A stretch of 64,000 bases of DNA, from the NCBI GenBank assembly GCA_040285745.1, contig JAUFOR010000003.1:992001-1056000 (forward strand), given 5' to 3'. Positions 712 to 51,155 of this stretch are shown one piece after another (the stretch's first letter is position 1; every line of letters begins with the position of its first letter). A program made the translations under genes and the position numbers. This DNA comes from Barthelona sp. PCE (Eukaryota). The notes beneath the pieces are model-generated. The model was not told the origin of the DNA, searched no databases, and worked only from the letters and a program-made list of their open reading frames with translations.

Positions 712-2079
712 ATGGATCCTGATCTAACAGGATGTGGGGTTTTGTCACATCACGTTACAGATTTACTGACAGAAGAACTTGCTAATGTAAGAAGTATAGA
801 TTTCGATATTTTATCATTAAAAAACGCAAAATTTTTTACCATTTTGTGTCTTAATGTTGATAGTAGAGCAGTAATCAAAAGCGTTTTAACCTGGTTGTTG
901 AATCCAACAACAGTTTTTAATTCCTGCATTATAAAGAATGCTTTGTTGTATATAAACTACAACCATGATCCAAAAAAGTCAGATTACACAGATGGATTAA
1001 CATCAGAAGATGTAGAAATGCTTTCTTATCTCAGAAGCAATTATCCTTCCAACGATATGAAACTACTAATAACATTTTTGTTGGGCGACTACACCCCCCA
1101 GATGACCATTGATATGATATGGCCATTTGATATGAACTTAGTGCCGCATTCGTTTTCTTTTTGGAGATTGGGAGATTCCGTTTTTGATCTTCCCAATAGT
1201 TGTGCTTCTATGATCAGATCTGAGCTCTTACACATTGACAAATACGAATATGAACGGTTTTATGACATATGCGAGACTCAATGTAGGCTTGTTTTTGATA
1301 TTCTGTGTGCTTACCCGCCTCTGTTTGGCTTACTTGTGGATCACATGAGTACAAGGAATCACATCATGCACTTTGTAACGTACTGTTCGCCTGGATCTCC
1401 GTTATTGTCATGTATGCAGCACATTTTTCACGACGTTTTTTGCTCGCAAGACATTGATATAGCAAATACACTTGGCTGGTTCAAATCTGAACATCTAATA
1501 TACACTGTTTTTGCTGGCAATAACGCAAATAATTTGCTGCAGACTGATGGTTTCTTACACCGTTTTACTTGTCTATTATACACATTAAAGACATGGTGCG
1601 TGTGTCCATCGCAAACGCAGAACATTGAGATTGGTTCGATGATCAATTTTATCAACAAGGGCCTTCTCATGCTTCTTTCAGTGATAGGACCCAATATAGA
1701 TACAGGCTTGCACGAAACAGCAATCATTCTCATTGAAGGAATATTGTTCATTTATGCTGCACTGAAGAAGGGTATTGGAGTTCCTTTAAAATTACAAACA
1801 CAAACTGAATTGCTTCTGCTTCGAGTGCTTTCTCTCTCAATTGTATACTGTAGTGATTCCAGTCTTAAGGATGTGTTGACTGCGTGCCTGGGCATACTCA
1901 GGTTGATTGATGTCAACCACAATGTCTTGTACGACATGATACTCCCCGGTGAGTTTTTTGTTTTCAAGCTACTGAAGAATATTCAAATCAATGATTTTGA
2001 GTGTCAATTACAGTTTTTTGACCAAAAATTATTGAATTCACAGGAGAATATCACCTTTGTTTTCAAAAAAAACCGGTGA
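712..2079 (+). CDS. hypothetical protein, 455 aa
   Basis: Long ATG-initiated ORF; no recognised motif. Confidence 0.7.
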   Translation: MDPDLTGCGVLSHHVTDLLTEELANVRSIDFDILSLKNAKFFTILCLNVDSRAVIKSVLTWLLNPTTVFNSCIIKNALLYINYNHDPKKSDYTDGLTSEDVEMLSYLRSNYPSNDMKLLITFLLGDYTPQMTIDMIWPFDMNLVPHSFSFWRLGDSVFDLPNSCASMIRSELLHIDKYEYERFYDICETQCRLVFDILCAYPPLFGLLVDHMSTRNHIMHFVTYCSPGSPLLSCMQHIFHDVFCSQDIDIANTLGWFKSEHLIYTVFAGNNANNLLQTDGFLHRFTCLLYTLKTWCVCPSQTQNIEIGSMINFINKGLLMLLSVIGPNIDTGLHETAIILIEGILFIYAALKKGIGVPLKLQTQTELLLLRVLSLSIVYCSDSSLKDVLTACLGILRLIDVNHNVLYDMILPGEFFVFKLLKNIQINDFECQLQFFDQKLLNSQENITFVFKKNR

Positions 2080-6119: not shown

Positions 6120-6203
6120 ATGAAAAGTGGAAAACAAACGATGATCAATGGGAAGAAGGTTGTTATTCGTTTTTCACCCTTTAAATGGATTATTGAGGAT
6201 TTT

Positions 6204-7835
6204 ATGATGAAGAACATATTTTTCGTTATCCTTTTGCTGGTGACATACGTCGCAATTACGCAATGCGCAAAGCTAACTTCACCTGTTTGTAATTACCAAA
6301 GTAACATTGTTCCCCAGGGTTCTTCTTTGATGCTCAAATGTTACTGCGTGTTTCACAAATGCGAACTTCAAAAAAGTACCTCAACTGACTTTGATTTGTA
6401 TGAAATTTTTCATCCAATGAATCTTACCGAATCATCCTCTTTTTACATTCGTGCATACTCGAAAGATCTCTTGCTCTACTCAGATATCCTGCCTCTCACC
6501 TTTATTTTTGAACTGGCTCTGGAATCACCAAACATCACTATTGATAATTATCCAGGTCATGTTGTCATTAATATTTCTGTTACAGAGGCATTGTGCGACA
6601 CCTGTGTTATCCGATACGGATTTTCAGAGGTCATTTCGCAGACATCTCCCGTTTATGACAGTTTTCTTGTTTTTAGGCAACCAGTCCATTTGAGGCAGAA
6701 ACTGTGCGCAGCGCAATGGAAGGAATCCTTCTCCAGCGCTGTTGTTTGTGTCGAATACAGAGTTAAACCAGACTTTCCATCCATTCAAAGCAGTGTCTCT
6801 CTGCATGGTTCGGTCACAGTTGGTCTTTCTATCGACTCTCAGTGGGAAGATTACCAACTACGCTATTGGTGGTTCAATGAACGGCTAGAGCTGACAGCAG
6901 CAATAGCGGCGAGCGAAAGAATACCTTTTGAGGTATATTCGGTACCATTCATAGTGCAAGGAAAGGGTACACTTTACGTCGTTGGATCGTCCACTCTGTT
7001 TTTTGAGGATCGGCGACAGGTGTTTTTCATTAACGCTGATGATAAGACACTGAATCAATCACTCTCTGATGTTTTTTTCGTATCTGACAAATGCTCCTCT
7101 GAAAACAAACTTATTTTGAACTCTGTGCCTGTGTTTCTCAGCGAAAATGGTCGGGAAAATGTTACTGATTTGCAGTACGCCTACCACCAGAGCTTACCAT
7201 TGCAAACTGATACCCAATACTATCTGTACGCGCAGCATCCAGACACGGTCGTTAAGCACGCATTCCACACAAAGAAACCTGTCTTGTGTGATTTAGTCTT
7301 CCGAGATAGTTTTGTTGCGCTTGATGATTCACTTTCATACGTAGATTCAATCGCCACTGTTAATGTTTTGACCGACATCCAGCTGCTGTGCGACGGGAAC
7401 GTGGAGTACAAGTTACTAGACCCTTTCGACAGCATAGTTGCGGCTTTACATGAGGATTCTTCATGGCTGTCTGCAACCGATTTAGACCTGTGTGCTTACG
7501 TTGCCGGATTTAGTGTACCATCCACAGCCTTCTGGATCTCAGCTCGTTTACTTATCAGACCAATGACCAATGGTTGCTTTCAAAACGGGTTTCTCGCACC
7601 AATATTGTCACTTAACGTAACCAGCCATCATGATGTCCTCAAAACAGCTGGAAGCATCTGGCAACGAGTGTCTTACTTAATGCTTGACTTTTCGTGGCGT
7701 GAAATATTAACCGGTACTTTTCTTTTAGTACTTTTGATGTTTATTTTGGTTGAAGTGGTACTAGCAGTGCTTGGATCCCATCAGAAGACTATAATTGTTG
7801 AAGAGAATCATATAACCAACAGAAACCGCTTGTAA
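6204..7835 (+). CDS. type I membrane/surface protein with possible Fn3-associated (CHB_HEX_C-like) repeats
   Basis: Signal peptide MMKNIFFVILLLVTYVA, C-terminal TM, repeated IRY...S.VY..P-type segments. Confidence 0.6.
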   Translation: MMKNIFFVILLLVTYVAITQCAKLTSPVCNYQSNIVPQGSSLMLKCYCVFHKCELQKSTSTDFDLYEIFHPMNLTESSSFYIRAYSKDLLLYSDILPLTFIFELALESPNITIDNYPGHVVINISVTEALCDTCVIRYGFSEVISQTSPVYDSFLVFRQPVHLRQKLCAAQWKESFSSAVVCVEYRVKPDFPSIQSSVSLHGSVTVGLSIDSQWEDYQLRYWWFNERLELTAAIAASERIPFEVYSVPFIVQGKGTLYVVGSSTLFFEDRRQVFFINADDKTLNQSLSDVFFVSDKCSSENKLILNSVPVFLSENGRENVTDLQYAYHQSLPLQTDTQYYLYAQHPDTVVKHAFHTKKPVLCDLVFRDSFVALDDSLSYVDSIATVNVLTDIQLLCDGNVEYKLLDPFDSIVAALHEDSSWLSATDLDLCAYVAGFSVPSTAFWISARLLIRPMTNGCFQNGFLAPILSLNVTSHHDVLKTAGSIWQRVSYLMLDFSWREILTGTFLLVLLMFILVEVVLAVLGSHQKTIIVEENHITNRNRL

Positions 7836-23822: not shown

Positions 23823-24549
23823 TATTCGGAAATAAACAAATAAAATATGTGATTATCTTTTTTAACTTAGGAAAAAGTAAGTAGGTCATAGAGGTATAAA
23901 TAGCTTATATTCAAGTTCATTAGATGATTTTCAATATTGTAATTTTTCTTAAAAGTGTATACTACAATTGTATGAAATTTTAAATTTTTTTATCTTCATT
24001 TTTATATTTTTTCCATTATTAAAATATAAAATAGACTATAAAATTATTTAATAAAGCAAAATTAAGTGTTAAAATAATAAAATAAAGTGTTTTATAGTTT
24101 CTAAAAGTTTCTTATTAGCTTTAAATTAAAAATTTTTTGAATGTATGATAAAAAACAACCAATAATATCTATAATGCAACATATTTAATGCAACATATGT
24201 GAAAATATGCTCTCAATAAAAACCTGCGTTAAAAATTGAGCTTTTTTAGTTTCTGCAATAATAATATTTTTACAGTACTTTACATTCTTAAAAATATAAC
24301 ACAAAACACCCATTACTATTAAAATATTGGTTTTAGCATCTTATATATTTATATATATGTAAAATCCTATATATGCATCTATGAATATGAATATCCATAT
24401 CATTGTGTTGTAAATTATTATATTTAAAGAAAACACCAAAGGATCTGCATGCATTATTGAACTACTATTTGCTACAATATTTCTTACCTTGTTTTATTAT
24501 TTTTTTATTTGTTTCTTGCAATTTAGGCCAGATTCAAGTTGATACAAAA

Positions 24550-26409
24550 ATGAGAAACGAGTATATTTATCAAAGGGACGCACATCACGATTATCCAGAT
24601 TCAGCATGTTGTATAGTTAGTGAGACACTTATGATTGTCAACCCATTTGATAAATCACTTCCTGGGATCCACTGTAACTATTTTTTGAAGGGAATTAGAT
24701 CAGTGGCTCAGCCAGAGGTCGAAGTGTTTAATCGATGCTGTCTTAACAAAGAAACATATAATTCATGTTTTTGGGCTTCAACAAAGGAAGGTTGTACCAT
24801 TCCACCACCTCAAGATGGTAATAGATGGCGTTTAACATTTTATTTTTTTCAGTTTCCATCATTTAATCGGTTTTCCGAAATTAAGCTGGGTTTTCCTAAT
24901 GAAGAAGTATTTGCTTTGTCTCCACATGCCTTCTTATTTGTTCATTTTGGTCAGAAAAGCCTAATTAGGCGAGACTATTCTGATGATTATTCATCATACG
25001 AAGACTTCGCATTAGTCATTGCCGATGATTATCATGGATGTGATCTATGGCTTGTTTCAGGTGCTTCTGATCCTTTGTTTCCAGGGGGTGTATGTATGAA
25101 GTCGGGAATTTATTTTTTTGAGAATGATCGATTTTTTCCAGCCGATAACATATATGGTGGCTTTGATAATTTATCAGGGGCAATTATTGGAATGGGTTCA
25201 ACAATGTATGCTGTTTTTCAAGACTCACTATTTGAGCTTCCAATAATTATTGATGAATATATTTCAGGAGCACATTTTTTTGCTTTTGGTATTTCCAGTA
25301 CCTTCACCCATTTTGTTTTGGGATATCGGGGGAAATACATTACCGAACAGGGTACAGTGCCTATGGATCACAGGTTTCCTTATCGTGGATGGACACTTGC
25401 CGAGACTTTTGACTACACATCGGATTATTGTTATGGTTCCAGGATATTTGCAATTAAGAGGGACATGATCAGGGACTACGTTCCAATCGATCGAAGTAAT
25501 GTGTTACTGAGAGCTTATCTTGTTCCTAAGGCTATTAAAGTGTTAGATGAAAATACGCTTTTTGTTAAAGGAAGCGATTTTCCAGTCATTTTCTTTCTAG
25601 ATAGACATGAAATATGGACTGTACCTATTGTTTATGGTCAGGATGTTGATGTGAGTATAGATAGCATGCAGGATTTTTCAGGAATGAATCCAATTAGTTT
25701 TAAGGTTCATAACGGTAAGTATGCAGCTATTGTAACGTTGGAGGACGGATCGGCATCTGAGCAAGTGTTTGAGACGGGTGTTTCGAAGTCACATTTAAGC
25801 TCTAAAGATTACTTTTTGTTGCATGAAATCGATACAATATATATTAATTGCGTTCCTTTCCGTCCACAGTTCAGGTTTTCCAGTCCTTGTATTGTTAAAG
25901 ATAAGTTGTTTGTGCGTCTGTTGGATGCATTTAACACTTACGTCTACAGAATTGTTGATAATGTACCTCAATTTATCGCCAGAATTGAAGGATGGTACCA
26001 ATTCTCACAGTACAGTGATCGTGTTGGCGTCCGAACAGACCATATAGGATCTGGTATTGCTCTCTTCGATGATAACTATGCGATTCTTACTTTCGTCCGT
26101 TTAGCCCATAATATGTTGAACTTATGTGGTGACTGCACTGTGTATAATCGACACAGTACAGCAAATCATATCGATTTTGAAGCTAAGGATGTTACAAAAC
26201 ATACGTTTACATGTTATAATGAAATGACGGGTTATAACAATGTGGTATATCGATGTAGCTATGAGGATAATCTGAGAGGAAGAGTTTCCATCACAAGAAG
26301 AGATTTGATAAGAATGGAGGAACGAACGGAGGTTGTTGACTTTATTGACTTTGCTTGTAGTAGCAAAATTATTCATTTTGAAGGTACAAACCCACTTCCT
26401 GAGGATTGA
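24550..26409 (+). CDS. hypothetical protein, lineage-specific ~600-aa family
   Basis: Long ORF, likely start ATG 24550; composition and termini similar to its neighbours. Confidence 0.7.
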   Translation: MRNEYIYQRDAHHDYPDSACCIVSETLMIVNPFDKSLPGIHCNYFLKGIRSVAQPEVEVFNRCCLNKETYNSCFWASTKEGCTIPPPQDGNRWRLTFYFFQFPSFNRFSEIKLGFPNEEVFALSPHAFLFVHFGQKSLIRRDYSDDYSSYEDFALVIADDYHGCDLWLVSGASDPLFPGGVCMKSGIYFFENDRFFPADNIYGGFDNLSGAIIGMGSTMYAVFQDSLFELPIIIDEYISGAHFFAFGISSTFTHFVLGYRGKYITEQGTVPMDHRFPYRGWTLAETFDYTSDYCYGSRIFAIKRDMIRDYVPIDRSNVLLRAYLVPKAIKVLDENTLFVKGSDFPVIFFLDRHEIWTVPIVYGQDVDVSIDSMQDFSGMNPISFKVHNGKYAAIVTLEDGSASEQVFETGVSKSHLSSKDYFLLHEIDTIYINCVPFRPQFRFSSPCIVKDKLFVRLLDAFNTYVYRIVDNVPQFIARIEGWYQFSQYSDRVGVRTDHIGSGIALFDDNYAILTFVRLAHNMLNLCGDCTVYNRHSTANHIDFEAKDVTKHTFTCYNEMTGYNNVVYRCSYEDNLRGRVSITRRDLIRMEERTEVVDFIDFACSSKIIHFEGTNPLPED

Positions 26410-26506
26410 TTAGTGTCATTCAGATTGATAATTGATGGGAAATAAATTTTGTTGTGATTGTAATTATTTCACTCTCAACGAATTTAGATAACGAGAGTTT
26501 GACAAT

Positions 26507-28462
26507 ATGGAAGACTTTGAAGGGAGCACAGCATTTGTAGACGTATTTGAAGAGGGTTTTTTTGTTTCACCTTCATTTTTGGGTCCTTTAACGGAAATTA
26601 ATGATACATGTGATTTAAATGTGTTCGAAGAACACAAAAGAACGATAGTTTGTGATATTAATTGTCCTCAAGATCTTGATTCCTTGTACAGCATTCTTTC
26701 CAAGCTTCCTGAAGATTTAAAGGGGTACTACATCCCACCTAGAGGGTATACGCATCAGGGACAATCGTTTTCTGTTATTTTTCTTCAATATGTTGATGGG
26801 GGTTTTGTTTTTGATGAATTGGTAACGTATGAGGCTCCATGTTTCATGAATATCTGCACAGTGATCAACAAGCAAGAATTTATTGTTCATAACGGGTGTG
26901 ACTATGATTATATACGGTTTTATGATGGTAGAACTGATGTTATGAACATTTGTTTGGGATCATTTATATTATATGTTGGTGGATTCGCTGTCTTTTGTAC
27001 TAAAAATGAACTTAAAAGGTTTAAATTACAAGGGAACCGTTTTGTGTTCGAGGTCATTGGAAAAGTTGAGGGAACAGTTAACGTATGTAAGCTGACTGGA
27101 TGCATGGTTGATAATGTGAGGGGTTCAAAGTTTAGTGTGATATATTTTGAAGGAGATAGCTTTCATAGTATCGATTTGTTGAAGGTATTCCCACTTCTAT
27201 CTTCTTTGCAAGAAACAGTAATCAGTAGGATATGGTTGCTCTCAATGTCGCGCAAAGAACTTGTGATAGAGATCTGCGGATTTTTGTATGTTTTCATTGA
27301 GGGAAACTGCTTCTGTTACAGATCAGGATTAAATGCTTTTAGGAACGCTATTCAAATGCCATTTTCACAAGAGTTCAACTATCTACCACACTTTTTTGAT
27401 TCATATTTTGTTGAAAATGGAAAGATTTGGAAGTTGGAAGAAATTGTATCGCCTTTTATAGGTGCATCGTTTACTGATGGTTTAGTCGCCACTTCTGAGA
27501 ACTGTGCCGTGTATTCTAACAAAGATATGCTTTTTGCATTAAATTTTAGCAACAAAAAGGTTCATTTTTTCAAAAAGAGTTATTTAACCTTTTTTCGTAC
27601 ATTCATCGCTTGCGCTAAGGATGGTGTCCGGATGGGCATGGAAAACGTAAAGGGAAAAATTGTAGGGAGTTCCATTATCCGAACAAGGTTGGTGAATGTT
27701 GAAAATCTGTCAGAAGCAGTTGAGGTTGTTAGGATCTACAAAAGCATATACGCATGTCCTGAGTTTGGTATTTTCGATGACGTGGCCCTGTTTGCAAAGT
27801 ATAGATATATTGATGGGAAAAGCGTAGAAGTTTCTATTATTAAGTATGAAGTTTCCACCAAGCAACGAAAGACAGTGTACTGTGAGGTTATTGATAGGCA
27901 GATGGCTAGGGTGAGTAAGTGGTATCGAAACTGTGTTGTCATGGATGTAGGCGACAAAGTTATTATACGCGAGATCAGCGATGACTTGTGGGAACGTGTG
28001 ATGTACATTCCTTTTCGACGATACACTGTCAATCCGTATGACTTTGGGCTTCAGGTTAAGCAGAACAGAAGGGGACATGTACAGTTCATTCGTTCGGAGT
28101 ATGATCGTCAGTATAAGGCGGGAACTTTTTATGCTTTTCTTTCTGCGAATCTGGTATTGTTCAACACTGGTATGTGGCGCATTAGAGCCGACTGCCATGC
28201 AGAACACGTGATTGACTTCGGGTTTGATTTGCAGAGCAGTGAATACCATATCGGAGTGGATATCGTTACCATTTATCATGTTGACAGATCCACCCTTACA
28301 GCACACCATAGAAGGTATGCGTTTGAAGATGAAGATATCTTCGTGGTCGATTGCGTTGAGATTGATGTGCAGATGTTCTTGAAATCTTGCACATACCATG
28401 ATGGTGCGCAATTTCTATCCAGTGAGAATGTGCAGAACGTGATTGACATGCGTGGATGGTAA
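26507..28462 (+). CDS. hypothetical protein, lineage-specific ~600-aa family
   Basis: 651-aa ORF in tandem with the previous gene. Confidence 0.7.
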   Translation: MEDFEGSTAFVDVFEEGFFVSPSFLGPLTEINDTCDLNVFEEHKRTIVCDINCPQDLDSLYSILSKLPEDLKGYYIPPRGYTHQGQSFSVIFLQYVDGGFVFDELVTYEAPCFMNICTVINKQEFIVHNGCDYDYIRFYDGRTDVMNICLGSFILYVGGFAVFCTKNELKRFKLQGNRFVFEVIGKVEGTVNVCKLTGCMVDNVRGSKFSVIYFEGDSFHSIDLLKVFPLLSSLQETVISRIWLLSMSRKELVIEICGFLYVFIEGNCFCYRSGLNAFRNAIQMPFSQEFNYLPHFFDSYFVENGKIWKLEEIVSPFIGASFTDGLVATSENCAVYSNKDMLFALNFSNKKVHFFKKSYLTFFRTFIACAKDGVRMGMENVKGKIVGSSIIRTRLVNVENLSEAVEVVRIYKSIYACPEFGIFDDVALFAKYRYIDGKSVEVSIIKYEVSTKQRKTVYCEVIDRQMARVSKWYRNCVVMDVGDKVIIREISDDLWERVMYIPFRRYTVNPYDFGLQVKQNRRGHVQFIRSEYDRQYKAGTFYAFLSANLVLFNTGMWRIRADCHAEHVIDFGFDLQSSEYHIGVDIVTIYHVDRSTLTAHHRRYAFEDEDIFVVDCVEIDVQMFLKSCTYHDGAQFLSSENVQNVIDMRGW

Positions 28463-28473
28463 TATTTTACTGT

Positions 28474-29778
28474 TTAGAAGTATCCGTCGAGACCGTCAAA
28501 ATCGCTGTTCTCTTCTTGAGATAGATCATCATCCAAGATATCCATATCCCAGTCCAGTTTGTAGAAGGTTTTTCCTCCAATGCCGTATGTTTGTAAAAAC
28601 TGAAATCCAGCATCTGTTGAAGCTGAGATAAAAGTAATTTTGGTTTTGAGCGTTAAGGCATTATCAATAAGCCAGTCCGTTAATGGCTCAGCGGTTTCAC
28701 AATCTTCTAGATCAGGTTCGGCTGTTGTGTAACGCACATTATTGTCCATTTCTACTCGGTATCCAACCAAGTCTTCAGAGACAACAAGGTGTTCAACACA
28801 ACCCATGTCAACAGCTTTCATCGTTTCCACAACACCGTACACAATGAGCTCAGGGTTGAGAGTAACATCTTCGAAAAATTCATTGGCAGCACGACGTTCC
28901 TTGTTGAAGTGAAGATCAGCTAACAAATTATCACACTTTTGGATGGCTTCACGGAAACCTGAACGACCACCATATGCAACAGTTACTGTTCCAAGTATAA
29001 GAGGTTTGAGACGGTAATGGATATCTTGGTGTTGACAGAACTCGTGCTTAAAGTCTGCACTTCCAGCAAGGATTAATCCCTGAATGTTTGGGGTTGAATC
29101 ATCGTTGACGAAGATGCTGTTGCACACATCGACGGCATGGCTGAGATACCATCCGCGTTTTTCAACACGAATACGCTGATATCTATTTTGAGACTGACCG
29201 CCTTGGTTCTGCTTCTTAGGGAGCTCTTCATCAAACATATAAATGATTTCTTGCGTTTGGCCAACCCGACCATACAGCGCACACTTGCCATCAATGACCA
29301 CAATTCCAATGCGATCTCTGTTACAACTTGCAATGAGCTTCTCTATCGGACCGACCCGGAAAGTTGTATCGCAGATGTAAAGGTTGGTTGTAATGGGCAT
29401 AAATGGCTCAAAGCTATAAACAAATTTTTTGAAACTTGAACCTTGATCACAAGGAAGGAAACCTGCGAAAATCACAAGTCCGTTTTTTGGCGTTCGATTA
29501 TAGCTTCTCAGAATGGTCAGGCACGATGACAGACTACCTGTAACATGCACACGTGTAAGACGTGAACGAATCTTTGAGGTTTTTGAAGCCTCTGATTCTA
29601 TACGCTTACGTTGAAGTACGATAGAGGATCCTGATGAGATGTAAATACTGATAAAGGACGTCCCAGTGGATGAATGGTGGCCTCATAAGTTCTGCATCAG
29701 CTTACGAAGCTTGAGAAGATGGAGTTGATGCGTTTCCGCCGATTCATTGGTATTGATGTTGTTACTGGGTGACTTCAT
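28474..29778 (-). CDS. eRF1: divergent eukaryotic release factor 1 with in-frame TGA at codon 32 (readthrough gene or recent pseudogene)
   Basis: ATG 29778 is in frame with ORF 28474-29550: KLRKLMQNL*GHHSSTGTSFISI...SKIRSR...PKNGLVIFAG, YICDTTF, QGGQSQ, GSADFK, YGGRSG and an acidic tail; 434 codons. Confidence 0.88.
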
Positions 29779-30146
29779 CGAATAGTTGTTCAATATTCTA
29801 TGCTCTTTGAAAGGGGAGAGAAGAAAAAGTGTATTGGGTTCAACATTGGATCAAATTCGATATTCAGAGCTATAAGGTGGACCTCTGTGTTTGTCTGTGT
29901 TTTGTAGTTGTATGGGCGACATTGATTCGTTTTGGCAGATTAATTGAGTCTGTATGTATCAATGATAGTGGCTTGAAAAGAAAACTAACATTTTCTTTCA
30001 TCAAATTGACGTGTTACCTCAACTATTCATCATAAGCAATGCATTATTGTGCACACTACTTGTACATATACAACAAATAAAATTGCTGGTGAAAAGAGGC
30101 AATCTGAATTTCACATTTATCCCTTTTCATTAATCATATCAGCTTA

Positions 30147-32489
30147 ATGGGAACGTTCACGGACAGTGATCTAGAAGCTGAACTCCTGCGATCGGGACAC
30201 GCATCTCCAACAGTATCGTCTATGGAGAATGACAACAAAGAACCATATGCTGAGAATATGTCGGCAAAATCCAAAGACATTGAGTTGATTAGCATTGCTG
30301 TCGATGAAGATGTGCAAAAAGATTTCGAGGAAGGCTCTTCCTCCTCAGATGAAGAACTCAATCATTCTTTTGAGACGGTTTTCTATTCTTCGTTGAAAAC
30401 CGTCACATCAGTAAGCGATAACATATCTATGAAGGACTTTTTGGCGGTTACATTGAGGATTTGTAACTGCTATTTTGCGATTGCATCTGCGTTGCTCATG
30501 CTCGCATCCGTTTTGAATTTCATTTTACTGCCATCGTATTCTTTACTGTATTACCTTAACAATTCAACAGGAATGTACTTTGTTGTTGCAAATGGCATCT
30601 CTCTTTTCATCATTGTTTGCGCAGCACCACAACTCTTTGTTGCTTGCATTTCGTTTGCGTCAAAGTTTTTCCTGGCAGGAGATGTAAGTCATTTGTATAA
30701 TCTTGCGTTTTTACGATGGTTTTTTGCTATTAATGAGCGTATTTTAGGTTTGAAACCCAAAACTTTCCGTCGAAAAGATACTTTCATGCAAATTGCAGTG
30801 TTTTTCGACGCATTAATCGTAGGTGCTGTCTTTTGGATCCAAACAGGTTTCGCTAGCTACACTAGTAGCTTCTTATTTGCTGTCTTCTTGATCACAACTA
30901 TCATGTGCATCTGCTACGTTGCACAGCATGTTATTATAGCATACGTCACGATACCTTCTATCAATGATATTGTCGTATGCTTTCATCTCACGGAGAATAA
31001 GGAGTTAGTTCAAGAAACTCTCAATCGCAAGTCTTTCATTTACAGATGGATGATGAACGAGACAGAAAAGGGAATGCAATCTAAATGGGCTCGCTTCCCA
31101 TGTTGGGTTTGCTTTTTGTTTCTCCTTCCTTTTTTGTTTGTGCTTTTCATGTGCCCCATATATGTATTTGTTGATGTATGGGAGGTGCGTAAAGCAACAA
31201 GAACCACACGCCGCTTCTCAGGTCTTCGTTTCTACCTTGCAATGTTTGTTGCCTGTGTTTACATAATCGCAGTGGTCTATTTATTCGGTGTGGCGATTTT
31301 CTTGCACGCAAAGTTCTCGAGCATCATTGTATCACTGATGAGTTTGTTTCCGAGCACCCCTTTCGTTGTTGCGTTCCTGGCAGATAAGCAGAAATACCTT
31401 AGAAGAGCATCCCGCCTTTGGCTGTTTGTTGTTCTGTTGTTGGCTGCTCTCATGCTCTTTTTTATTGTTAAATACGTTAACCAGGATGACAGTCGCTATC
31501 CGGAACTGGGTAATGCAGTTGAGAAAACAACACAGCTACAGAACATCACTTTTAATGATTTCCAAACATGGTATGAGTCAAAACCTTACATAGATATGGT
31601 CGGCCATCAACTTCCCCGCTCTGGTGTTTTTGATCCTGCAGTTTCGGGATCTTTACAGTCAGCATATCCAATATGCAGCATGAACGTGCATGGGCTGTCA
31701 GTTTTCGACTATATGTTCTTCTCTTTTATTGCGTACCGTCCTGGATTCTATCGAATCTACGAACCGTTCAAAAACGATGATTGGGAGATTGTGGGCGTCA
31801 ACACCAAGCGGTTCAATTCATATTTTATTGATTTTTACTCTCCTTCCCGTAACCTCAGTGTTGTAGCAATAAGAGGCACGTCTGCGAACTCTATGCTAGA
31901 CTTTGTGCTCGATTTCGACGTGTTTAGCGAATCAGCGCTTTTAGGATTCCTCAATGCTATGTTCCCCTTCGGTTCATGGTTGCCTGAGTCCTTCCAGAGC
32001 AGGCTCGTATCTGCCATGTCTGTCGTTGAAGGTATTAACGATCTTAACGCACAGAGATATGATCGTGAGGCTGTGAAGTATATCAAGTATCGTAGTTACG
32101 TTGCAGACAATACAATTGTGACAGGGCACTCGTTGGGCGGTGGTCTCGCGCAGGTTGTCGCAGCTAAAACTGGAAACAAGGCGATAGTTTTCAGCTCTCC
32201 CGGTATGGCACTCACATCGAGTAAGTTTAAGGTTCCTTATAACTCATTGCGCATGACTAGCACGACCGTCGTTCCCGATAACGATCCAGTAGCCAAGATT
32301 GACATTCATGCTGGTGAAGTTCAACGAATTGCATGTGATAAGGCGAAGCATCAATTTGAGTGCCACGGCATACTCCGCACTTTTAGGGAATTAGGCGTAC
32401 ACTGCATTAATTCCGATATTCTATATCTACGAGATCAGGCGACCGATATTATTGCACGACTGAAGCAGGAGGAAAAGAAAAGAGGATAA
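30147..32489 (+). CDS. multi-TM class 3 lipase (alpha/beta hydrolase)
   Basis: Many TM helices, then VVAIRGT, VTGHSLGGGLA and DPVAKID. Confidence 0.85.
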   Translation: MGTFTDSDLEAELLRSGHASPTVSSMENDNKEPYAENMSAKSKDIELISIAVDEDVQKDFEEGSSSSDEELNHSFETVFYSSLKTVTSVSDNISMKDFLAVTLRICNCYFAIASALLMLASVLNFILLPSYSLLYYLNNSTGMYFVVANGISLFIIVCAAPQLFVACISFASKFFLAGDVSHLYNLAFLRWFFAINERILGLKPKTFRRKDTFMQIAVFFDALIVGAVFWIQTGFASYTSSFLFAVFLITTIMCICYVAQHVIIAYVTIPSINDIVVCFHLTENKELVQETLNRKSFIYRWMMNETEKGMQSKWARFPCWVCFLFLLPFLFVLFMCPIYVFVDVWEVRKATRTTRRFSGLRFYLAMFVACVYIIAVVYLFGVAIFLHAKFSSIIVSLMSLFPSTPFVVAFLADKQKYLRRASRLWLFVVLLLAALMLFFIVKYVNQDDSRYPELGNAVEKTTQLQNITFNDFQTWYESKPYIDMVGHQLPRSGVFDPAVSGSLQSAYPICSMNVHGLSVFDYMFFSFIAYRPGFYRIYEPFKNDDWEIVGVNTKRFNSYFIDFYSPSRNLSVVAIRGTSANSMLDFVLDFDVFSESALLGFLNAMFPFGSWLPESFQSRLVSAMSVVEGINDLNAQRYDREAVKYIKYRSYVADNTIVTGHSLGGGLAQVVAAKTGNKAIVFSSPGMALTSSKFKVPYNSLRMTSTTVVPDNDPVAKIDIHAGEVQRIACDKAKHQFECHGILRTFRELGVHCINSDILYLRDQATDIIARLKQEEKKRG

Positions 32490-34136: not shown

Positions 34137-35413
34137 TTAGAATTGTCTGAAGACGGCATTGAACCTCGCTACTGAAGATCCCTGCTCTTCGTACTGCTCC
34201 TTTGTATGACAGACACTGTAAAAAGCGGGATCATTCGCAAACTCTGAAGCACCCAGGAACACTGCAATTTGCTGAAGGTTGCGCTTGCAAAACACATTAA
34301 CATTGATCTTTCTGACGTCCTCTTCAGCTATGCTCATCCTCACGGCCATACTCTTCATGCGGTCGTCCACAATTGTCTGAATATCTCCCTCTAGTCTCTT
34401 CTTGAAGTTTTTGAAGCTTGTGTTTCCTCCACATAACACGACGTTTCCATACAGATCAATACGTGATTGCATGGGGCATGCCTGGATAGCCTCATCAACA
34501 AGAACTGCAAGCGGCTTGTCCAGCTTAGCATTGAAAATTTCAGGCATGAAGAACATCTCAGGACCAATAAAAGCCTCGTAACCAACATCAAACGCGATCT
34601 TACCCTTGTTCGGGAACTCGTGCACGACGTTTGTGATATACTTCTCGGGCTTTGAGTCGAACAAATTAAATCCGTGCACCAAATCTCTGGCTACATAACA
34701 GTGGTTCTCCTTAACCTGGAGTGCACATGACTCACTGCCCTGTAGAGGGATTCCCTCTCTCTTCCTCAGCGTCTCTTGTATGAAAGATGTGACGTTTTTA
34801 CCACCTAATGGGATAGTGCGAATTGCGCTTCCAACAACGAAACCCTCTACAACAGGGACGATTTGCGTGCCTCCATCACCAGAATCGACAACGACGCCAG
34901 TGAGTGCGTTTCCCTGCTCATCTGTGATTGCCTTCTTTGCGCAAAGAGCCATTGTCGCTTGTACACCAATATACAAATGCGGTACGTTAAAGGTCTCAAA
35001 CATGATTTCAGCGGTGTACTCTCTATTTTCTGGTGGATTTAGAGGCGATTCAGTAACAACAACGCCATGGTTCTCTGGCTCAACCCTCATCATATCAAAA
35101 AAAGATGCTTGCCAGAATTTCTCCATCATATCCCAATTGGTTACGATTCCGTCGGTGATTGGATAGTTTAGTGAGTATTCAAGCTTCTTTTCAAGCGCTT
35201 CATTACCAATAACAAAATCAAGATCTGATAAAGTTCCGTTTGCCCCTGTAACATGGTCTGATTTATGCCCCACTACGGTTGGGATATTATGTAAAGGTAA
35301 TCCTTGACCGGCAAAACCGATTTTCGACCAACTAAATATTAGGGGGTGCTCCTTTTTGCATCTACATACCTAGTTCCGTTATCAAAAATCACTGCTGGGC
35401 GATTTGTTGCCAT
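34137..35413 (-). CDS. ARP3: actin-related protein 3; exons 35370-35413 and 34137-35331
   Basis: Spliced N-terminus MATNRPAVIFDNGTSWSKIGFAG; PPENREYTAEIMFETFNVP; C-terminal CHTKEQYEE...NAVF. Confidence 0.93.
35332..35369 (-). other. spliceosomal intron, 38 nt (ARP3)
   Basis: GTATGT...CTAATATTTAG; removal restores the actin-fold DNG..K.GFAG motif. Confidence 0.9.
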
Positions 35414-40762: not shown

Positions 40763-41537
40763 ATGAGTGACTACGATTATCTATTCAAAGTTGTGTTATT
40801 GGGTGACGCAGGTACTGGAAAAGTATGGTATTATGGCTTAAATTTGTATTATGAGATCACAACATTTAAAAAAGGATTCTATTCTTTCAAACTGCTGCAG
40901 CCTTGTCTAAACGGCGAGCTTGGATCTTGGATATAAAGCAAAGCGATTTTCAGCCTCTCGAATTAATATTAACATTTAGAGTTCTCTTCTTGCTCGTTAT
41001 ACCAGAAATGAATTCTCTCGTTCATCCAAATCGACAATTGGCGTCGAGTTTGCTACAAAAACTGTTGTATTGAACGAGAAACGCGTGAAAGGACAGATTT
41101 GGGATACAGCTGGCCAAGATAGATTTAGAGCCGTCTGTGACGCCTATTACCAGGGTGCATACGGTGCTATTCTCGTTTACGATATCTCAAAACGCTCATC
41201 TTTTGAGAATTTGGATAAGTGGTTAGATGAAGTGAAACGTTATGCCGATGCCAATATCTCTTTACTTGTTGCCGGTAACAAATGCGATCTCTCATATGCA
41301 CGAGCCGTGTCAGTTGAAGAAGGAATGAAATGGACCGAAGAACACAACTGCTCCTTCATTGAGACTTCAGCATTGGACGCGACAAACGTAGAGGAGGCTT
41401 TCCTCAACGTCCTTTGGAACGTCTATGAGAAGCATTCCAACGGAGCCTATGAAAGCGAAGATGAAGGAATCACCATCGACACTAATGAAGGAGAGGAGAT
41501 AGCTCTGAATAATGACGAGCCTCCTTGCACTTGTTAG
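40763..41537 (+). CDS. RAB11: Rab11-family GTPase; exons 40763-40822 and 40980-41537
   Basis: Spliced MSDYDYLFKVVLLGDAGTGKSSLL...SKSTIGVEFAT...WDTAGQ, GNKCDL, ETSAL, C-terminal CTC. Confidence 0.93.
40823..40979 (+). other. spliceosomal intron, 157 nt (RAB11)
   Basis: GTATGG...TTAACATTTAG; removal restores the P-loop GDAGTGKS. Confidence 0.9.
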
Positions 41538-44138: not shown

Positions 44139-46385
44139 ATGTCCGTGCCTCGTAGCGTTTTCCCAAACGCACTGCACAAGGGCCCGTTTATACACGAGCA
44201 CAAAACCTTCGATACTTCATCAAATTTTATTTCGCAACTTCTGTCTCTTGAAAGATGCCCAAACTATCAATCAGTTGGTGTATTTGGGGGGATATCAGTG
44301 GGGAAAACAGCACTTATCGATCATATACTGTCCCACAACCACGAACTTACGAAGGGTTTTTCTAATACTCATAAACTGTGTTCTGAGATGTGCACAACAA
44401 CGCACATCTCTTTTACGACCGCTTTAGGCAGTACTGCTCAGGGAAAATCAGCCCTGCTTACACTGGTGGATACACCTGGGCATGCGGACCTATTCAGTGC
44501 CGCAACTCATATTCTACCCTTAATAGACGTGGGACTATACGTCGTGGATGTTGTGGAAGGTGTTAACATATATGCTCATCGTATGATACGGGAATTGATG
44601 AGCGCACGCGTCCCAATCATTTTTGTGATTAACAAAATAGATAAACTCTTTCTAGAGCAGAAGATGGCTCCAGAAAATGCATTCAACAAGCTAAATTCTG
44701 TTGTCAACGACCTTCACTCCATTGTTAAGTTCGATACCAACAATCTAGCCTTGTCTTGCCTTAATTTCAATTGCCTCTTCACATTGGATGCCTTTAGAGC
44801 ACATTACTCCACTGACGCTATCGGTTGGGATTCCAACTTTCCAGATTTCGTTCTCCAACCGCTGTTCAAGTTGATGTCTTTCCCATTTCGGTATGAGGCT
44901 GAGGATCTTCCACGTGCCCTGAAACGCATTGGCTTCACCGTAACAAATGATATAATCCCGCTATCGGTTCACGAAAAGGTGAGCTATCTGCTGAGGTTGT
45001 TCTTGGGCGGAGGCTGGATAGAATCGATATTAGTACAGGTTGACCCCCGTGACACCTGCCCTGAGAAGCCCATGATGGTTCTCCTTGACAATGACAATGC
45101 ATATTCGGTGTGTAGATTCGCACGGCGAGTTAACAGAAAGAACTTCACTCTCGGCAGTCGCTGCATTCCGGACTGTGAGCTTTTCATACCACAGGGTCGC
45201 GCATACATGCCAGTCGATTCAGTCCCTGCTGGTGTCGTGTGCTGCATATGCGGAATCCACTCTCTCCCTCATGAAACCAATATGGGTAACCCAATGATGA
45301 CCGTTTCCATAGCACCAGAGGAGATTGGGCAGTACCACTCCCTTGCCGCGCACTGCTCTCTATTGGAACTCGTGCATCCTTCCGTTTCTGTAACCAAGAA
45401 CTGTGACGAAACGGAGCTAAGTCTGGCGGGTGGCGGCGAGTTCGATTTAAACGTATTTCTCCACGATCTCTCGTTCTTGATGCTGGAGGGTAACCAATCA
45501 TTCATTGTGAGCGACCCTCAGCCGGTTGTGAGGGAGACTGTTACAATCATCAGTCAAGTGTCAGCCGAAACAATCTCAAAGTATGGAAACTTTGTTTTGC
45601 GCACTGTTGCTGAACCTCATGTCAGACAGAGAAATGAGCCATCTTCGTACTTTAGATCAAACGTACTATCTGTCTCCCATGATTGCCTTCTTGTTATGGC
45701 CATTGTGCCTGTTGAATCAACGAAAGAGGCTGTAGTTGAAGCTGAAATGATGAGAACCGCCCTCAAAAACTGCAAGAAAACAATTGATGCAACTTTTGAA
45801 CGCTTTGTTAAATACGGTCCACTAACTCGCTCTCGTGTTTCCGGATGTATGTTCCACATCACAGGATTTGAGCGGTTTAGTCAGGGGGAGATTGACGCAG
45901 CTGAACTGAGTGAAGCCCTTACCAATTCACTAACAGCCGCATTCTATCTTGCTGAGCCACGGTTTCTTCTCAGTGAATATTTATTCGAGGTCATTTGCCC
46001 AACACAGAAGATTAAAACAGTGCGTAACATCGTTGAAAGAAGACCCTTTGCACGATATCGTACAGCACATAACATTGTAGGGACATCTCTTTCATACCTG
46101 CAGTTCAACCTTATATCGCTCGACGCCATTGGTATGGAGGTTGATATTCGCGCTGGGACTAATGGTGCTGCGTACATTAACAAGTATTCATCGCAGTTCA
46201 TGCTCCTTAACGCCGATCCACTAGATGCTCGTATTGTTATCGAGCCACTTGCAATTTCCTCTCAGCCGAAGCTGGGTAGGGAACTGTATATCAGACTACG
46301 CGGGCGTAGGGCAATCCCTCAGTTTGATATGGAGCGATACGTCAGCTCTGAGACATACACCACCATTAAAAGTCTTGGCCTTTGA
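44139..46385 (+). CDS. SNU114: U5 snRNP GTPase Snu114/EFTUD2, reduced and divergent
   Basis: GKT, DTPGH, DVVEGV, NKIDKLFLEQKMAPENAF, and the Snu114-type C-terminus DPLD...IEPL...LGREL...R.RR. Confidence 0.85.
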   Translation: MSVPRSVFPNALHKGPFIHEHKTFDTSSNFISQLLSLERCPNYQSVGVFGGISVGKTALIDHILSHNHELTKGFSNTHKLCSEMCTTTHISFTTALGSTAQGKSALLTLVDTPGHADLFSAATHILPLIDVGLYVVDVVEGVNIYAHRMIRELMSARVPIIFVINKIDKLFLEQKMAPENAFNKLNSVVNDLHSIVKFDTNNLALSCLNFNCLFTLDAFRAHYSTDAIGWDSNFPDFVLQPLFKLMSFPFRYEAEDLPRALKRIGFTVTNDIIPLSVHEKVSYLLRLFLGGGWIESILVQVDPRDTCPEKPMMVLLDNDNAYSVCRFARRVNRKNFTLGSRCIPDCELFIPQGRAYMPVDSVPAGVVCCICGIHSLPHETNMGNPMMTVSIAPEEIGQYHSLAAHCSLLELVHPSVSVTKNCDETELSLAGGGEFDLNVFLHDLSFLMLEGNQSFIVSDPQPVVRETVTIISQVSAETISKYGNFVLRTVAEPHVRQRNEPSSYFRSNVLSVSHDCLLVMAIVPVESTKEAVVEAEMMRTALKNCKKTIDATFERFVKYGPLTRSRVSGCMFHITGFERFSQGEIDAAELSEALTNSLTAAFYLAEPRFLLSEYLFEVICPTQKIKTVRNIVERRPFARYRTAHNIVGTSLSYLQFNLISLDAIGMEVDIRAGTNGAAYINKYSSQFMLLNADPLDARIVIEPLAISSQPKLGRELYIRLRGRRAIPQFDMERYVSSETYTTIKSLGL

Positions 46386-50056: not shown

Positions 50057-50139
50057 GTCCCAATCGTATAGCGGTTTTATTACGGTAGCTTGCTAAGCTA
50101 TTGCCTTCGGGCTCCAGAGTTCGAATCTCTGTTGGGACG
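50057..50139 (+). tRNA. tRNA-Ser(GCT)
   Basis: Acceptor stem GTCCCAA/TTGGGAC, GTAGC TTGCTAA GCTAT, variable arm TGCCTTCGGGC, CAGAG TTCGAAT CTCTG, downstream T-run. Confidence 0.92.
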
Positions 50140-50587
50140 CTTTTTGGTTTAGTTTTTACTTTACCCTGCTTAACTTTAAGGGTGAATTACTTCAATAATT
50201 CTTCTCATTTTTTACATAATTTTATTTATTACAACCAAATACATAAGATTTCAAACCACTAAGTAACTTTTAATTCAATTTTTAAACTTCTTTAATTCAT
50301 TATACCAAACCCTTCTACAAGCTGAAATGACCTCCCTTTTTGTGTTGAATGAGAGACCAGTCAGAGAAGGAACCCAAAAACAAACTAGAATCAATAAAGT
50401 GTTTTTAAATCTTGTATGAACGCTTTATCTATGTTTATCTGTTCTCAGGTGGTCTAGTACAAATAAACATCGTTACTCAGAGCATCCACATATCTTCACA
50501 GAAGCAAATTTGTAGAAGAAATTTGCATATTGTTATTCATCCTATAACGTTTCTTTAAGTCTCTTAAGAACTTGTTTAATAGTAGAT

Positions 50588-51155
50588 ATGAAATTCACAG
50601 CCCTCTTTTTATTGATCTGCACAGCTGCAATGACTTCAGCTTTTACAGTGCAACCCTGCATCGGCGGAAAAGACGCCATGCACAGCTTCATGCCCTTCCC
50701 AACCCCCATCGCCAAGGTCGCTCTTGCCCGTTCCTACAAGGACGTCAAGATGAGACTGCTCAGCATTCGTGAGGAATCTCACAGTTCTTCATGGAATGTT
50801 GGTCTTGGTGTAACATATCAGGGCGTCACAGCTGACTTTAAGCTCGGTCATTCCAAGCAGGATCAACTCAAGCTCACTGATGATGACAGTTTTGAAATTG
50901 GAGAGGTTTCACTCTCTTCTGATGAGTCTTATATCGCATTATACGGGCTATGGTGTTCTAGATGTGGAGCAATGTATGACAAAAAAAACTGAGAAAAAAA
51001 AGAAAAAATTTTTCTCGCATTATGATGGAATATAACTAATTTTTAGGGTTACTATGAATACTTCTGAGCTTGGTGACGTCAAATCCTTCATTGAGGATAC
51101 TGTCGACCCCGTTGATCTCATGCTTCAAGTAATTAAGGATCACAAGCGCCATTAA
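50588..51155 (+). CDS. secreted hypothetical protein, 164 aa; exons 50588-50973 and 51047-51155
   Basis: Signal peptide MKFTALFLLICTAAMTSA; splicing extends the frame to ...MVTMNTSELGDVKSFIEDTVDPVDLMLQVIKDHKRH. Confidence 0.7.
50974..51046 (+). other. spliceosomal intron, 73 nt
   Basis: GTATGA...ACTAATTTTTAG, AT-rich, same signature as the other three introns; in-frame join. Confidence 0.75.

What the first reader, a model, noticed from the sequence alone, without database searches (positions are those of the whole stretch)
28474..29778. Release factor gene interrupted by its own substrate: eRF1 with one in-frame UGA, a candidate readthrough autoregulation switch
Seen: the ORF track starts at GTG 29550, but the same frame continues up to ATG 29778. 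It is broken only by TGA at 29683-29685 (codon 32, AAC TTA TGA GGC). The upstream peptide KLRKLMQNL aligns with the conserved eRF1 KIKKLIKSL helix. Downstream, GTS, YxCxxxF, GGQ and the acidic tail are intact, and 434 codons is normal eRF1 length. The next in-frame ATG is at 29400, so reinitiation would lose most of the N domain. TGA ends other genes here (U1-C, TTLL1, CDC50), so this is not code reassignment. Established: bacterial prfB (RF2) and Mimiviridae eRF1 use internal stop codons for recoding-based control, while cellular eukaryotic eRF1 genes are normally uninterrupted. Inference: full-length protein is made only when UGA termination is weak, giving negative feedback. A recent pseudogene or a base error remain possible.
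Basis: partly seen in the sequence, partly recalled or inferred. Interest (0 to 1): 0.88.

Follow-up and report, generated by a model that had tools for sequence, protein, structure and literature searches.

The report
Release-factor gene interrupted by a stop codon
The gene for the protein that recognises stop codons in the tiny free-living protist Barthelona carries a stop codon inside real coding sequence, so a whole protein probably needs that stop to be misread, but reads that could rule out a sequencing or allele artefact were not available.

Summary
On the minus strand, ATG 29778 to TAA 28474 is a 434-codon eRF1 gene with one in-frame TGA at 29683-29685, codon 32.

The organism is Barthelona sp. 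PCE. Its GenBank model hides the stop inside an in-phase 75-nt "intron", 29631-29705.

That segment is genuine eRF1 coding sequence:
- It adds 29 bits to an eRF1 profile and beats 200 of 200 shuffles.
- It holds the GTS residues that are invariant in 22 of 22 aligned sequences.
- It lacks the GTATG...TAAYATTTAG signals of the two verified introns in the window.

TGA is an ordinary stop here, ending 7 of 32 real genes. I found no SECIS, no leaky sequence context and no stimulatory RNA fold.

The factor is very divergent: at most 38% identity to anything else, NIKS changed to KIRS, and the UGA-linked Ser70 changed to His.

Best reading (0.4): full-length eRF1 needs UGA readthrough, which feeds back negatively on its own synthesis. 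This could be an evolved switch or a tolerated nonsense allele like yeast sup45-n.

Three rivals remain open: an allele or assembly artefact, a real intron, and a pseudogene with a paralogue elsewhere. No reads covered the TGA, no orthologue was found, and the whole genome was not available.

The parts
28474..29778 (-). eRF1 gene, 434 codons plus TAA, read through one TGA
   Evidence: Pfam eRF1_1, eRF1_2 and eRF1_3 match. PDB eRF1 chains match at E 3e-72. The GenBank model is PCE1_001448 of Barthelona sp. PCE.
29683..29685 (-). In-frame TGA, codon 32, followed by GGC
   Evidence: The alignment column is variable and hydrophilic (E, S, K, G, D, R) in 21 other sequences. In the AF2 model it lies in the loop 31-41, just after helix 14-30.
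29631..29705 (-). 75-nt in-phase segment (GTAAGC...TCATCAG) that the GenBank model removes as an intron. It encodes residues 26-50.
   Evidence: The segment adds 29.3 bits to an eRF1 profile, and 0 of 200 shuffles reach the observed score. It contains T40 and S41, invariant in 22 of 22 sequences.
29656..29664 (-). GTS motif (G39 T40 S41), inside the annotated intron
   Evidence: The motif's role is taken from passages of PMC12153298 and PMC9161772.
29563..29574 (-). KIRS in place of NIKS (K69 I70 R71 S72)
   Evidence: Of 151 family members, 84 had the motif readable: 63 NIKS and none KIRS.
29545..29547 (-). His78 at the place of human Ser70
   Evidence: At this place 84 readable members have S 73, N 5, A 3, R 2, F 1 and no H.
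29359..29379 (-). YxCxxxF motif (YICDTTF)
29194..29202 (-). GGQ motif
35332..35369 (-). Reference intron 1: 38 nt, in an Arp/actin-family gene, GTATGT...CTAATATTTAG
   Evidence: Splicing joins MATNRPAVIFDNGT to SWSKIGFAGQ.
40823..40979 (+). Reference intron 2: 157 nt, in a Rab GTPase gene, GTATGG...TTAACATTTAG
   Evidence: Splicing restores the P-loop GDAGTGK|SSLL.

Best explanation
This is the eRF1 gene of Barthelona sp. PCE, probably the only one in a 10.2-Mb genome. The TGA at codon 32 lies in translated sequence, in a surface loop between helix 1 and the GTS loop of the stop-codon-reading N domain.

The GenBank intron is most likely a gene-finder's way round the stop. A full-length factor is then made only when a near-cognate tRNA (Trp, Cys or Arg) reads UGA32 instead of eRF1 terminating there.

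Because the competitor at that codon is eRF1 itself, synthesis falls when eRF1 is plentiful and rises when it is scarce. That is a built-in negative feedback. The factor's own changes at UGA-linked residues (KIRS for NIKS, His for Ser70) may make UGA termination leaky enough for this to work.

Shown: the stop is in the assembly, the sequence on both sides is coding, TGA works as a stop, and the residues are changed. Inferred: the readthrough itself, the feedback, and that this is the only eRF1. Whether it is an evolved switch or a recently fixed, tolerated nonsense allele (as in yeast sup45-n) cannot be told from these data.
For: - One stop in an otherwise open 434-codon frame, with eRF1 homology on both sides.
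- The 25-codon segment around the stop scores +29.3 bits (371.2 against 341.9 for the spliced model). Shuffles average 343.4 with a maximum of 353.0, and 0 of 200 reach the real score. That is about 1.2 bits per residue against 0.86 for the whole protein, so the segment has been kept as coding.
- It holds T40 and S41, invariant in 22 of 22 sequences, and strand 42-47 of the N-domain sheet.
- The position of the stop tolerates many residues.
- The segment's ends do not match the two verified introns of the window. An in-phase GTRAG..YAG pair of 150 nt or less encloses 995 of 8492 codon positions in 15 ordinary ORFs by chance.
- There is no in-frame ATG before codon 127.
- TGA terminates 7 of 32 real genes of 200 aa or more, so the factor must meet UGA. 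None of those 7 has G after the TGA.
- Ser70 substitution is linked to UGA readthrough in Blastocrithidia (passages of PMC12153298).
- Yeast eRF1 nonsense mutants are viable (passages of PMC2039749).
- The assembly was polished with 308x Illumina reads (Table 1 of PMC11316075).
Against: - No read or contig independent of the assembly covers the TGA.
- No orthologue was found, so conservation of the stop and dN/dS are untested.
- The context UGA-G is not the known leaky UGA-C, and no downstream fold exceeds shuffles (z +0.54 with 140 of 200 shuffles as good; z -0.65 with 50 of 200).
- TGA usage as a stop is ordinary (7 of 32), which gives no sign of weak UGA termination genome-wide.
- A curated pipeline that used RNA-seq mapping produced the intron model, and I could not see whether reads support it.
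- The intron reference set is only two introns.
- Whether a second eRF1 gene exists could not be checked, because no genome is held.
- 0 of 7 TGA-G terminators has about a 0.2 probability by chance.
Confidence: 0.4

Rival explanations
1. Allele or assembly artefact. The cells also carry, or only carry, an uninterrupted copy. The TGA would be one allele of a heterozygous site captured by a collapsed consensus, a culture polymorphism, or a residual base error. Nothing unusual would then happen in translation.
For: - A single base separates TGA from codons for G, R, S, L, W or C. G, R and S are among the residues seen at this column.
- The rest of the gene is intact.
- The assembly is Nanopore R9.5 with Illumina polishing, and Merqury completeness is 98.4%, which leaves room for some unassembled variants.
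- The protein model P0002 comes from the same assembly, so it is not independent.
- There is no recoding signal.
Against: - 308x Illumina polishing makes a plain substitution error unlikely.
- Residual Nanopore errors are mostly indels (recalled), and the frame here is kept.
- 966 bases of the gene covered by contigs of two runs of one study show 0 differences, though they do not cover the TGA.
- Ploidy and heterozygosity of this organism are unknown to me.
Confidence: 0.25
2. Real in-phase intron, as in the GenBank model. Positions 29631-29705 are spliced out and a 409-aa eRF1 lacking residues 26-50 is made. Intron retention would give the stop.
For: - GTAAG...CAG borders, a length of 75 nt and kept phase.
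- The organism has a spliceosome: a Snu114-like gene and two real introns.
- The annotation pipeline used RNA-seq mapping and PASA.
- AF2 still folds the shortened protein (mean pLDDT 79.3).
Against: - The segment is eRF1 coding sequence of above-average conservation.
- Splicing would delete the end of helix 1, the GTS loop (T and S invariant in 22 of 22) and strand 42-47.
- In the AF2 model of the spliced form, residues 1-25 fall below pLDDT 50 and pTM drops from 0.63 to 0.47. This is weak evidence.
- It has neither the 5' GTATG nor the 3' TAAYATTTAG shared by both verified introns.
- Such GTRAG..YAG in-phase pairs occur by chance around 11.7% of codons.
- Introns are rare here: 2 verified in about 45 genes.
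Confidence: 0.15
3. Decaying paralogue. A canonical eRF1 elsewhere in the genome does the work, and this divergent copy has just acquired a nonsense mutation.
For: - Extreme divergence: at most 38% identity to any of 1.84 billion representatives other than its own model.
- The weakest domain is the codon-reading N domain (24.6 bits against a cut-off of 23.8).
- Near-invariant residues are changed (KIRS, His78).
Against: - Only one stop and no frameshift in 434 codons, despite deep divergence. The divergence therefore arose under selection for an open frame.
- GGQ, GTS, Glu55, YxCxxxF and the acidic tail are kept.
- The genome is the smallest known of a free-living eukaryote (10.2 Mb, 5064 proteins, 4.46% repeats), and the window shows no other broken gene.
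- Most eukaryotes have one eRF1 gene (recalled).
Confidence: 0.12
4. Specified decoding of UGA: selenocysteine, a suppressor tRNA, or a context-dependent sense/stop code.
For: UGA is the codon used for Sec and for Trp in ambiguous codes. The Ser70 place is changed, as in UGA-reassigning lineages.
Against: - No SECIS or any relevant Rfam match at E of 1 or less in 27400-30300.
- The convergent neighbour's stop lies 11 nt from the eRF1 stop, leaving no free 3' UTR.
- None of six other genes tested by reading through upstream or downstream TGAs shows homology across a TGA.
- TGA ends 7 of 32 genes.
- The 3 tRNA genes of the window are Asn, Ser and Ser.
Confidence: 0.05

Closest known systems
Mimivirus R726 / Megavirus mg280 class-I release factor (Jeudy et al. 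2012, PMC3521657; abstract and passages read)
   Same: An eRF1-type factor whose own ORF carries an in-frame UGA in its 5' part. That UGA must be read through, and the arrangement is proposed to be autoregulatory.
   Different: - The viral genes need a second event, a frameshift.
- Their stop is in the leaky UGA-C context and is conserved between two viruses.
- Readthrough was tested experimentally.
- Here the host is a cellular chromosome, the context is UGA-G, there is no frameshift, and there is no evidence of conservation.
- 19 giant-virus eRF1 loci from IMG/VR are only 28-33% identical, and none has a stop at this place.
Bacterial prfB (RF2) +1 frameshift at UGA (as described in PMC3521657)
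   Same: A release factor whose synthesis depends on failure to terminate at an early in-frame UGA that the factor itself reads, giving negative feedback.
   Different: RF2 is an unrelated protein family. It uses a frameshift rather than readthrough, and it has a conserved CUU UGA C shifty site, which is absent here.
Yeast sup45-n viable nonsense mutants of eRF1 (passages of PMC2039749, which cites Moskalenko et al. 2003; PMC8701342 seen as listing and abstract start)
   Same: Premature stops in the essential eRF1 gene are tolerated, with a reduced amount of full-length eRF1. This is a self-suppressing allele.
   Different: Those are laboratory mutants with fitness costs, and gene amplification is reported for them. 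Here it would be the state of a natural isolate or culture.
Plant eRF1 autoregulation by readthrough and NMD (PMC5397192; listing and abstract start only)
   Same: A cellular eRF1 whose level is tied to the termination efficiency of its own mRNA.
   Different: By my recollection of that work, the plant circuit acts at the normal stop codon and through NMD features in the 3' UTR, not at an internal stop in the N domain.
eRF1 of UGA-reassigning lineages such as Blastocrithidia, Ser70Gly (passages of PMC12153298)
   Same: Substitution at the Ser70 place next to the NIKS motif.
   Different: Here the residue is His, not Gly or Ala. TGA is still a regular stop (7 of 32 genes), and no other in-frame TGA was found in the window.

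Membership tests
eRF1 (eukaryotic/archaeal class-I release factor) | Three-domain architecture eRF1_1, eRF1_2, eRF1_3 | tested here: met
   Pfam E-values 2.7e-05, 1.2e-28 and 4.9e-16, all above their cut-offs. PDB eRF1 chains match at E 3e-72 over residues 14-426.
eRF1 (eukaryotic/archaeal class-I release factor) | GGQ peptidyl-tRNA hydrolysis motif | tested here: met
   G193 G194 Q195, invariant in 22 of 22 sequences.
eRF1 (eukaryotic/archaeal class-I release factor) | [quoted passage not shown] | tested here: inconclusive
   GTS, Glu (E63) and YxCxxxF are present. TASNIKS reads KTSKIRS and Ser70 is His78. Among 84 readable members of 151, none has KIRS and none has His.
eRF1 (eukaryotic/archaeal class-I release factor) | Uninterrupted reading frame | tested here: not met
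   TGA at codon 32.
Programmed stop-codon readthrough (recoding) | Coding potential and homology continue in frame past the stop | tested here: met
Programmed stop-codon readthrough (recoding) | Leaky context or stimulatory downstream RNA element | tested here: not met
   The context is UUA UGA GGC, with no UGA-C. Folds of 100 nt and 191 nt give z +0.54 and -0.65. There is no Rfam match.
Programmed stop-codon readthrough (recoding) | Stop conserved at the same codon in orthologues | not testable with these tools
   No relative closer than 38% identity turned up in the protein searches. The metagenome scan was empty. No genome is held.
Programmed stop-codon readthrough (recoding) | Full-length product demonstrated | not testable with these tools
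   This needs mass spectrometry, ribosome profiling or a reporter assay.
Release-factor autoregulation by recoding (RF2 / Mimivirus type) | The internal stop is one that the factor itself decodes in this organism | tested here: inconclusive
   TGA ends 7 of 32 genes, including CDC50 and a TTL-family gene at the ends of their domains. That this factor is the one reading them is inferred.
Spliceosomal intron (GenBank model of 29631-29705) | Splice signals like those of verified introns of the same genome | tested here: not met
   Both verified introns have GTATG...TAAYATTTAG. This segment has GTAAGC...ATCTCATCAG. The reference set is only 2 introns.
Spliceosomal intron (GenBank model of 29631-29705) | The removed segment is not needed for the protein | tested here: not met
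   +29.3 bits, 0 of 200 shuffles as good. It contains the invariant T40 and S41 and strand 42-47.
Spliceosomal intron (GenBank model of 29631-29705) | Spliced RNA observed | not testable with these tools
   The contigs laid cover only 28554-29433.
Selenoprotein gene | SECIS element in the mRNA | tested here: not met
   No SECIS family at E of 1 or less in 27400-30300.
Variant nuclear code with UGA as sense | In-frame TGA at conserved positions of many genes, with TGA rare or absent as a terminator | tested here: not met

The most novel reading that the evidence does not exclude
Barthelona's only eRF1 is made solely by readthrough of a fixed UGA in its own N domain. This is an evolved self-tuning loop in which the factor's altered UGA-sensing residues (KIRS, His at the Ser70 place) set the leak rate. 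It would be the first cellular eukaryotic counterpart of the bacterial RF2 and Mimivirus release-factor switches.
Probability: 0.2. Interest if true: 0.85.

Novelty: new variant of a known kind. Interest (0 to 1): 0.55.

Why it matters
Recoding-based self-control of a release factor is known for bacterial RF2 and for giant-virus eRF1. My two searches turned up no case of an internal stop in a cellular eukaryotic eRF1 gene.

A free-living eukaryote whose termination factor depends on failed termination would show that this logic evolved a third time. It would also give a natural system for studying how eRF1 residues such as Ser70 and NIKS set UGA leakiness.

If instead it is an artefact, it is a useful warning. 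The public gene model deletes the invariant GTS loop to avoid a stop, and anyone using that protein for eRF1 or genetic-code surveys would be misled.

Tried and rejected
- **Reads.** The look-up of sequencing runs listed 3 runs of one study, none on record as RNA. Read laying placed 4 short contigs from 2 runs on 28554-29433 only, with 0 differences. Nothing covers the TGA or the putative intron, so there is no verdict on the base, on expression or on splicing.
- **Whole genome.** None is held, so I could not search for a second eRF1, tRNA-Trp, a suppressor tRNA or the Sec machinery.
- **Orthologues.**
  - The word-based search gave 4 hits, and only the gene's own model was close.
  - The exhaustive HMMER search gave 2704 hits at E of 0.001 or less, none above 38% identity except the gene's own model.
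  - Three name look-ups of 30 hits gave generic plant, mollusc, bird and lichen eRF1 names or no names.
  - The metagenome scan matched 343 pattern stretches with 0 relatives.
  - The viral scan with the single protein matched 40 stretches with 0 relatives.
- **Viral origin.** 20 IMG/VR loci found with the alignment are 28-34% identical, no closer than cellular eRF1.
- **Tree.**
  - The IQ-TREE run did not finish.
  - FastTree used 97 rows. I kept proteins of 370-470 aa and dropped P0002 and the cluster members P0154-P0167.
  - It puts the query on a long branch beside unnamed aRF1-like proteins, with support 93. I read this as long-branch attraction.
- **Code change.** Rejected.
- **SECIS.** None found.
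- **Downstream RNA structure.** None beyond shuffles.
- **More reference introns.** Pattern scans gave mostly chance hits. Only two introns could be verified by the protein they restore.
- **U1-C.** Not found by two regex scans or by Pfam on 20 ORFs.
- **Supplements.** The supplementary files of PMC11316075 were closed. They may hold gene-model or intron statistics bearing on the intron rival.

Full report
**What is there**

On the minus strand a frame opens at ATG 29776-29778 and closes at TAA 28474-28476, 434 codons later. Its only interruption is TGA at 29683-29685, codon 32, in the context AAC TTA TGA GGC. The mechanical ORF list starts at GTG 29550 for this reason.

Read with X at the stop, the product matches all three Pfam eRF1 domains. 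It also matches solved eRF1 structures at E 3e-72 over residues 14-426. Those alignments run straight across the stop. The next in-frame ATG is codon 127 at 29400, so reinitiation would lose the N domain.

**Whose gene it is**

The only close database match is "hypothetical protein PCE1_001448 [Barthelona sp. PCE]", 409 aa. It is identical to my translation except that residues 26-50 are missing. At the DNA level the missing part is a 75-nt, in-phase GTAAGC...TCATCAG segment at 29631-29705, which contains the TGA. So the public annotation treats the stop as intronic.

The genome paper (PMC11316075; passages, Table 1 and methods read) reports:
- a 10.2-Mb genome in 8 contigs with 5064 proteins;
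- a Nanopore assembly polished with 308x Illumina reads;
- gene models from GeneMark-ET and AUGUSTUS after RNA-seq mapping, checked with PASA.

**Is TGA a stop here?**

Yes. Of 33 ATG-started ORFs of 200 aa or more, 21 end in TAA, 8 in TGA and 4 in TAG. One TGA ORF is an antisense shadow, which leaves 7 of 32.

The CDC50 and TTL-family genes end in TGA exactly where their Pfam domains end. Reading TGA through in six other genes only added stretches without homology, each followed by an ATG or another stop.

No SECIS or other relevant RNA family is found around the gene. The convergent neighbour's stop is 11 nt from the eRF1 stop, so there is no free 3' UTR. A code change and selenocysteine are therefore unlikely.

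**Is the segment an intron?**

I think not, for five reasons.

1. It is eRF1 coding sequence. A profile built from 21 other eRF1s scores the full protein 371.2 bits and the spliced model 341.9. In 200 shuffles of the 25 residues the mean is 343.4 and the maximum 353.0, and none reaches the real value. Per residue the segment is better conserved than the protein as a whole.
2. It carries T40 and S41 of the GTS motif, invariant in 22 of 22 aligned sequences. GTS is one of the recognised stop-codon-reading elements (passages of PMC12153298 and PMC9161772).
3. In an AlphaFold model (mean pLDDT 83.4, pTM 0.63) helix 1 spans residues 14-30, a loop spans 31-41 and strand 1 spans 42-47. Splicing would remove the helix end, the loop and the strand. 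The model of the spliced form has pLDDT 79.3 and pTM 0.47, and its first 25 residues are below 50. This is weak evidence.
4. The window has two introns that I could verify by the protein they restore:
   - 35332-35369(-), 38 nt, in an Arp/actin-family gene;
   - 40823-40979(+), 157 nt, in a Rab gene.

   Both start with GTATG and end with TAAYATTTAG. The eRF1 segment has neither signal.
5. Finding such a rescue by chance is easy. An in-phase GTRAG..YAG pair of 150 nt or less encloses 995 of 8492 codon positions in 15 ordinary ORFs of the window, and any GT..AG pair encloses 8452. The verified-intron signal encloses 0.

The caveats are that two reference introns are few, and that I could not see RNA reads.

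**How unusual the protein is**

An exhaustive HMMER search of 1.84 billion representatives found 2704 relatives, but nothing above 38% identity apart from the gene's own model. The named best hits are ordinary plant, mollusc and bird eRF1s.

GGQ, GTS, the Glu55 place and YxCxxxF are kept. TASNIKS reads KTSKIRS, and the Ser70 place is His78. Of 151 other family members, 84 had this region readable by my pattern:
- 63 have NIKS and none has KIRS;
- at the Ser70 place 73 have S, 5 N, 3 A, 2 R, 1 F and none H.

Ser70Gly is the substitution tied to UGA readthrough in Blastocrithidia. A FastTree tree puts the protein on a long branch next to unnamed aRF1-like sequences. I take that as long-branch attraction. 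Giant-virus eRF1s from IMG/VR are 28-33% identical, have canonical motifs and carry no stop at this place (19 loci inspected). A viral origin is therefore not indicated.

**How it most likely works**

If the TGA is real and the segment is translated, the only route to a functional factor is near-cognate decoding of UGA32. The column tolerates E, S, K, G, D and R in other species and lies in a surface loop, so any inserted residue should do.

eRF1 itself competes at that codon, so output is inversely coupled to eRF1 activity. This feedback follows from the arrangement and is not an extra assumption. The same logic is documented for bacterial RF2 and was demonstrated for Mimivirus R726 (PMC3521657). 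Yeast cells survive nonsense alleles of SUP45 with less full-length eRF1 (PMC2039749).

What I cannot show is that the stop is programmed:
- The context is UGA-G rather than the leaky UGA-C.
- There is no downstream structure beyond shuffles.
- There is no orthologue in which to test conservation.
- None of the 7 genuine TGA terminators in the window is followed by G, but that has about a 0.2 probability by chance.

**Rivals**

- **A heterozygous or minority allele, or a residual error.** This is the most serious rival. One base change turns G, R, S, W, C or L codons into TGA, the protein model is not independent of the assembly, and no read evidence reached the site. The four contigs laid cover 28554-29433 only and show 0 differences.
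- **A real intron.** See above.
- **A dying paralogue.** This is disfavoured. A single stop in a deeply diverged but otherwise open frame points to long selection for an open frame. The genome is also very compact, and the window shows no other broken gene. But I could not search the genome for a second eRF1.

**Verdict**

It is unproven and competes with ordinary explanations that one read-mapping step would settle.

Independently of that, the public 409-aa model very probably misdescribes the gene.

Noticed in passing
35332-35369 (-) and 40823-40979 (+): The two verified spliceosomal introns share an extended signal: 5' GTATG and 3' TAAYATTTAG, with the branch-like TAAY at a fixed 5 nt from the AG. 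This hints at constrained intron signals, as I recall for other intron-poor metamonads. Only about 2 of 45 genes in the window have an intron.
   Followed up: partly
50974-51046 (+): A candidate third intron (GTATGA...CTAATTTTTAG, 73 nt, GC 0.22) lies in a gene-poor stretch upstream of a short ORF. It could not be tied to a protein.
   Followed up: partly
28460-28476: The stop of the convergent 651-aa gene (ending at 28462) and the eRF1 stop (28474-28476) are 11 nt apart. The two mRNAs' 3' ends must overlap each other's coding DNA.
   Followed up: no
29680-29711 (-): In the 191-nt fold, a stem of about 10 bp pairs the GUAAG of the annotated 5' splice site with the UUAUGAGGC that holds the stop. 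The fold as a whole is not better than shuffles (z -0.65).
   Followed up: partly
44139-46385 (+): A 748-aa GTPase whose best matches are Snu114 / U5-116K spliceosome proteins (E 2e-36). It ends in TGA.
   Followed up: partly
50057-50140 (+): ARAGORN calls a tRNA-Ser(GCT) here, but it does not reach Rfam's tRNA gathering score in the whole-window scan.
   Followed up: no
29179-29202 (-), residues 193-200: After GGQ the protein reads SQNRYQRIR, which resembles the SQxRFERxR of the aRF1-like sequences more than the SALRFARLR of typical eRF1. This may contribute to its odd placement in the tree.
   Followed up: no
runs X1 and X2: A run labelled as a different organism (B), from the same study, holds fragments of this gene with 0 differences. 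It is probably not an independent source.
   Followed up: no
24403-28462 (+), 6120-7835 (+), 712-2079 (+): Several long ORFs (451-668 aa) have no Pfam family at E of 0.001 or less. This is typical of the strong divergence of this genome.
   Followed up: no
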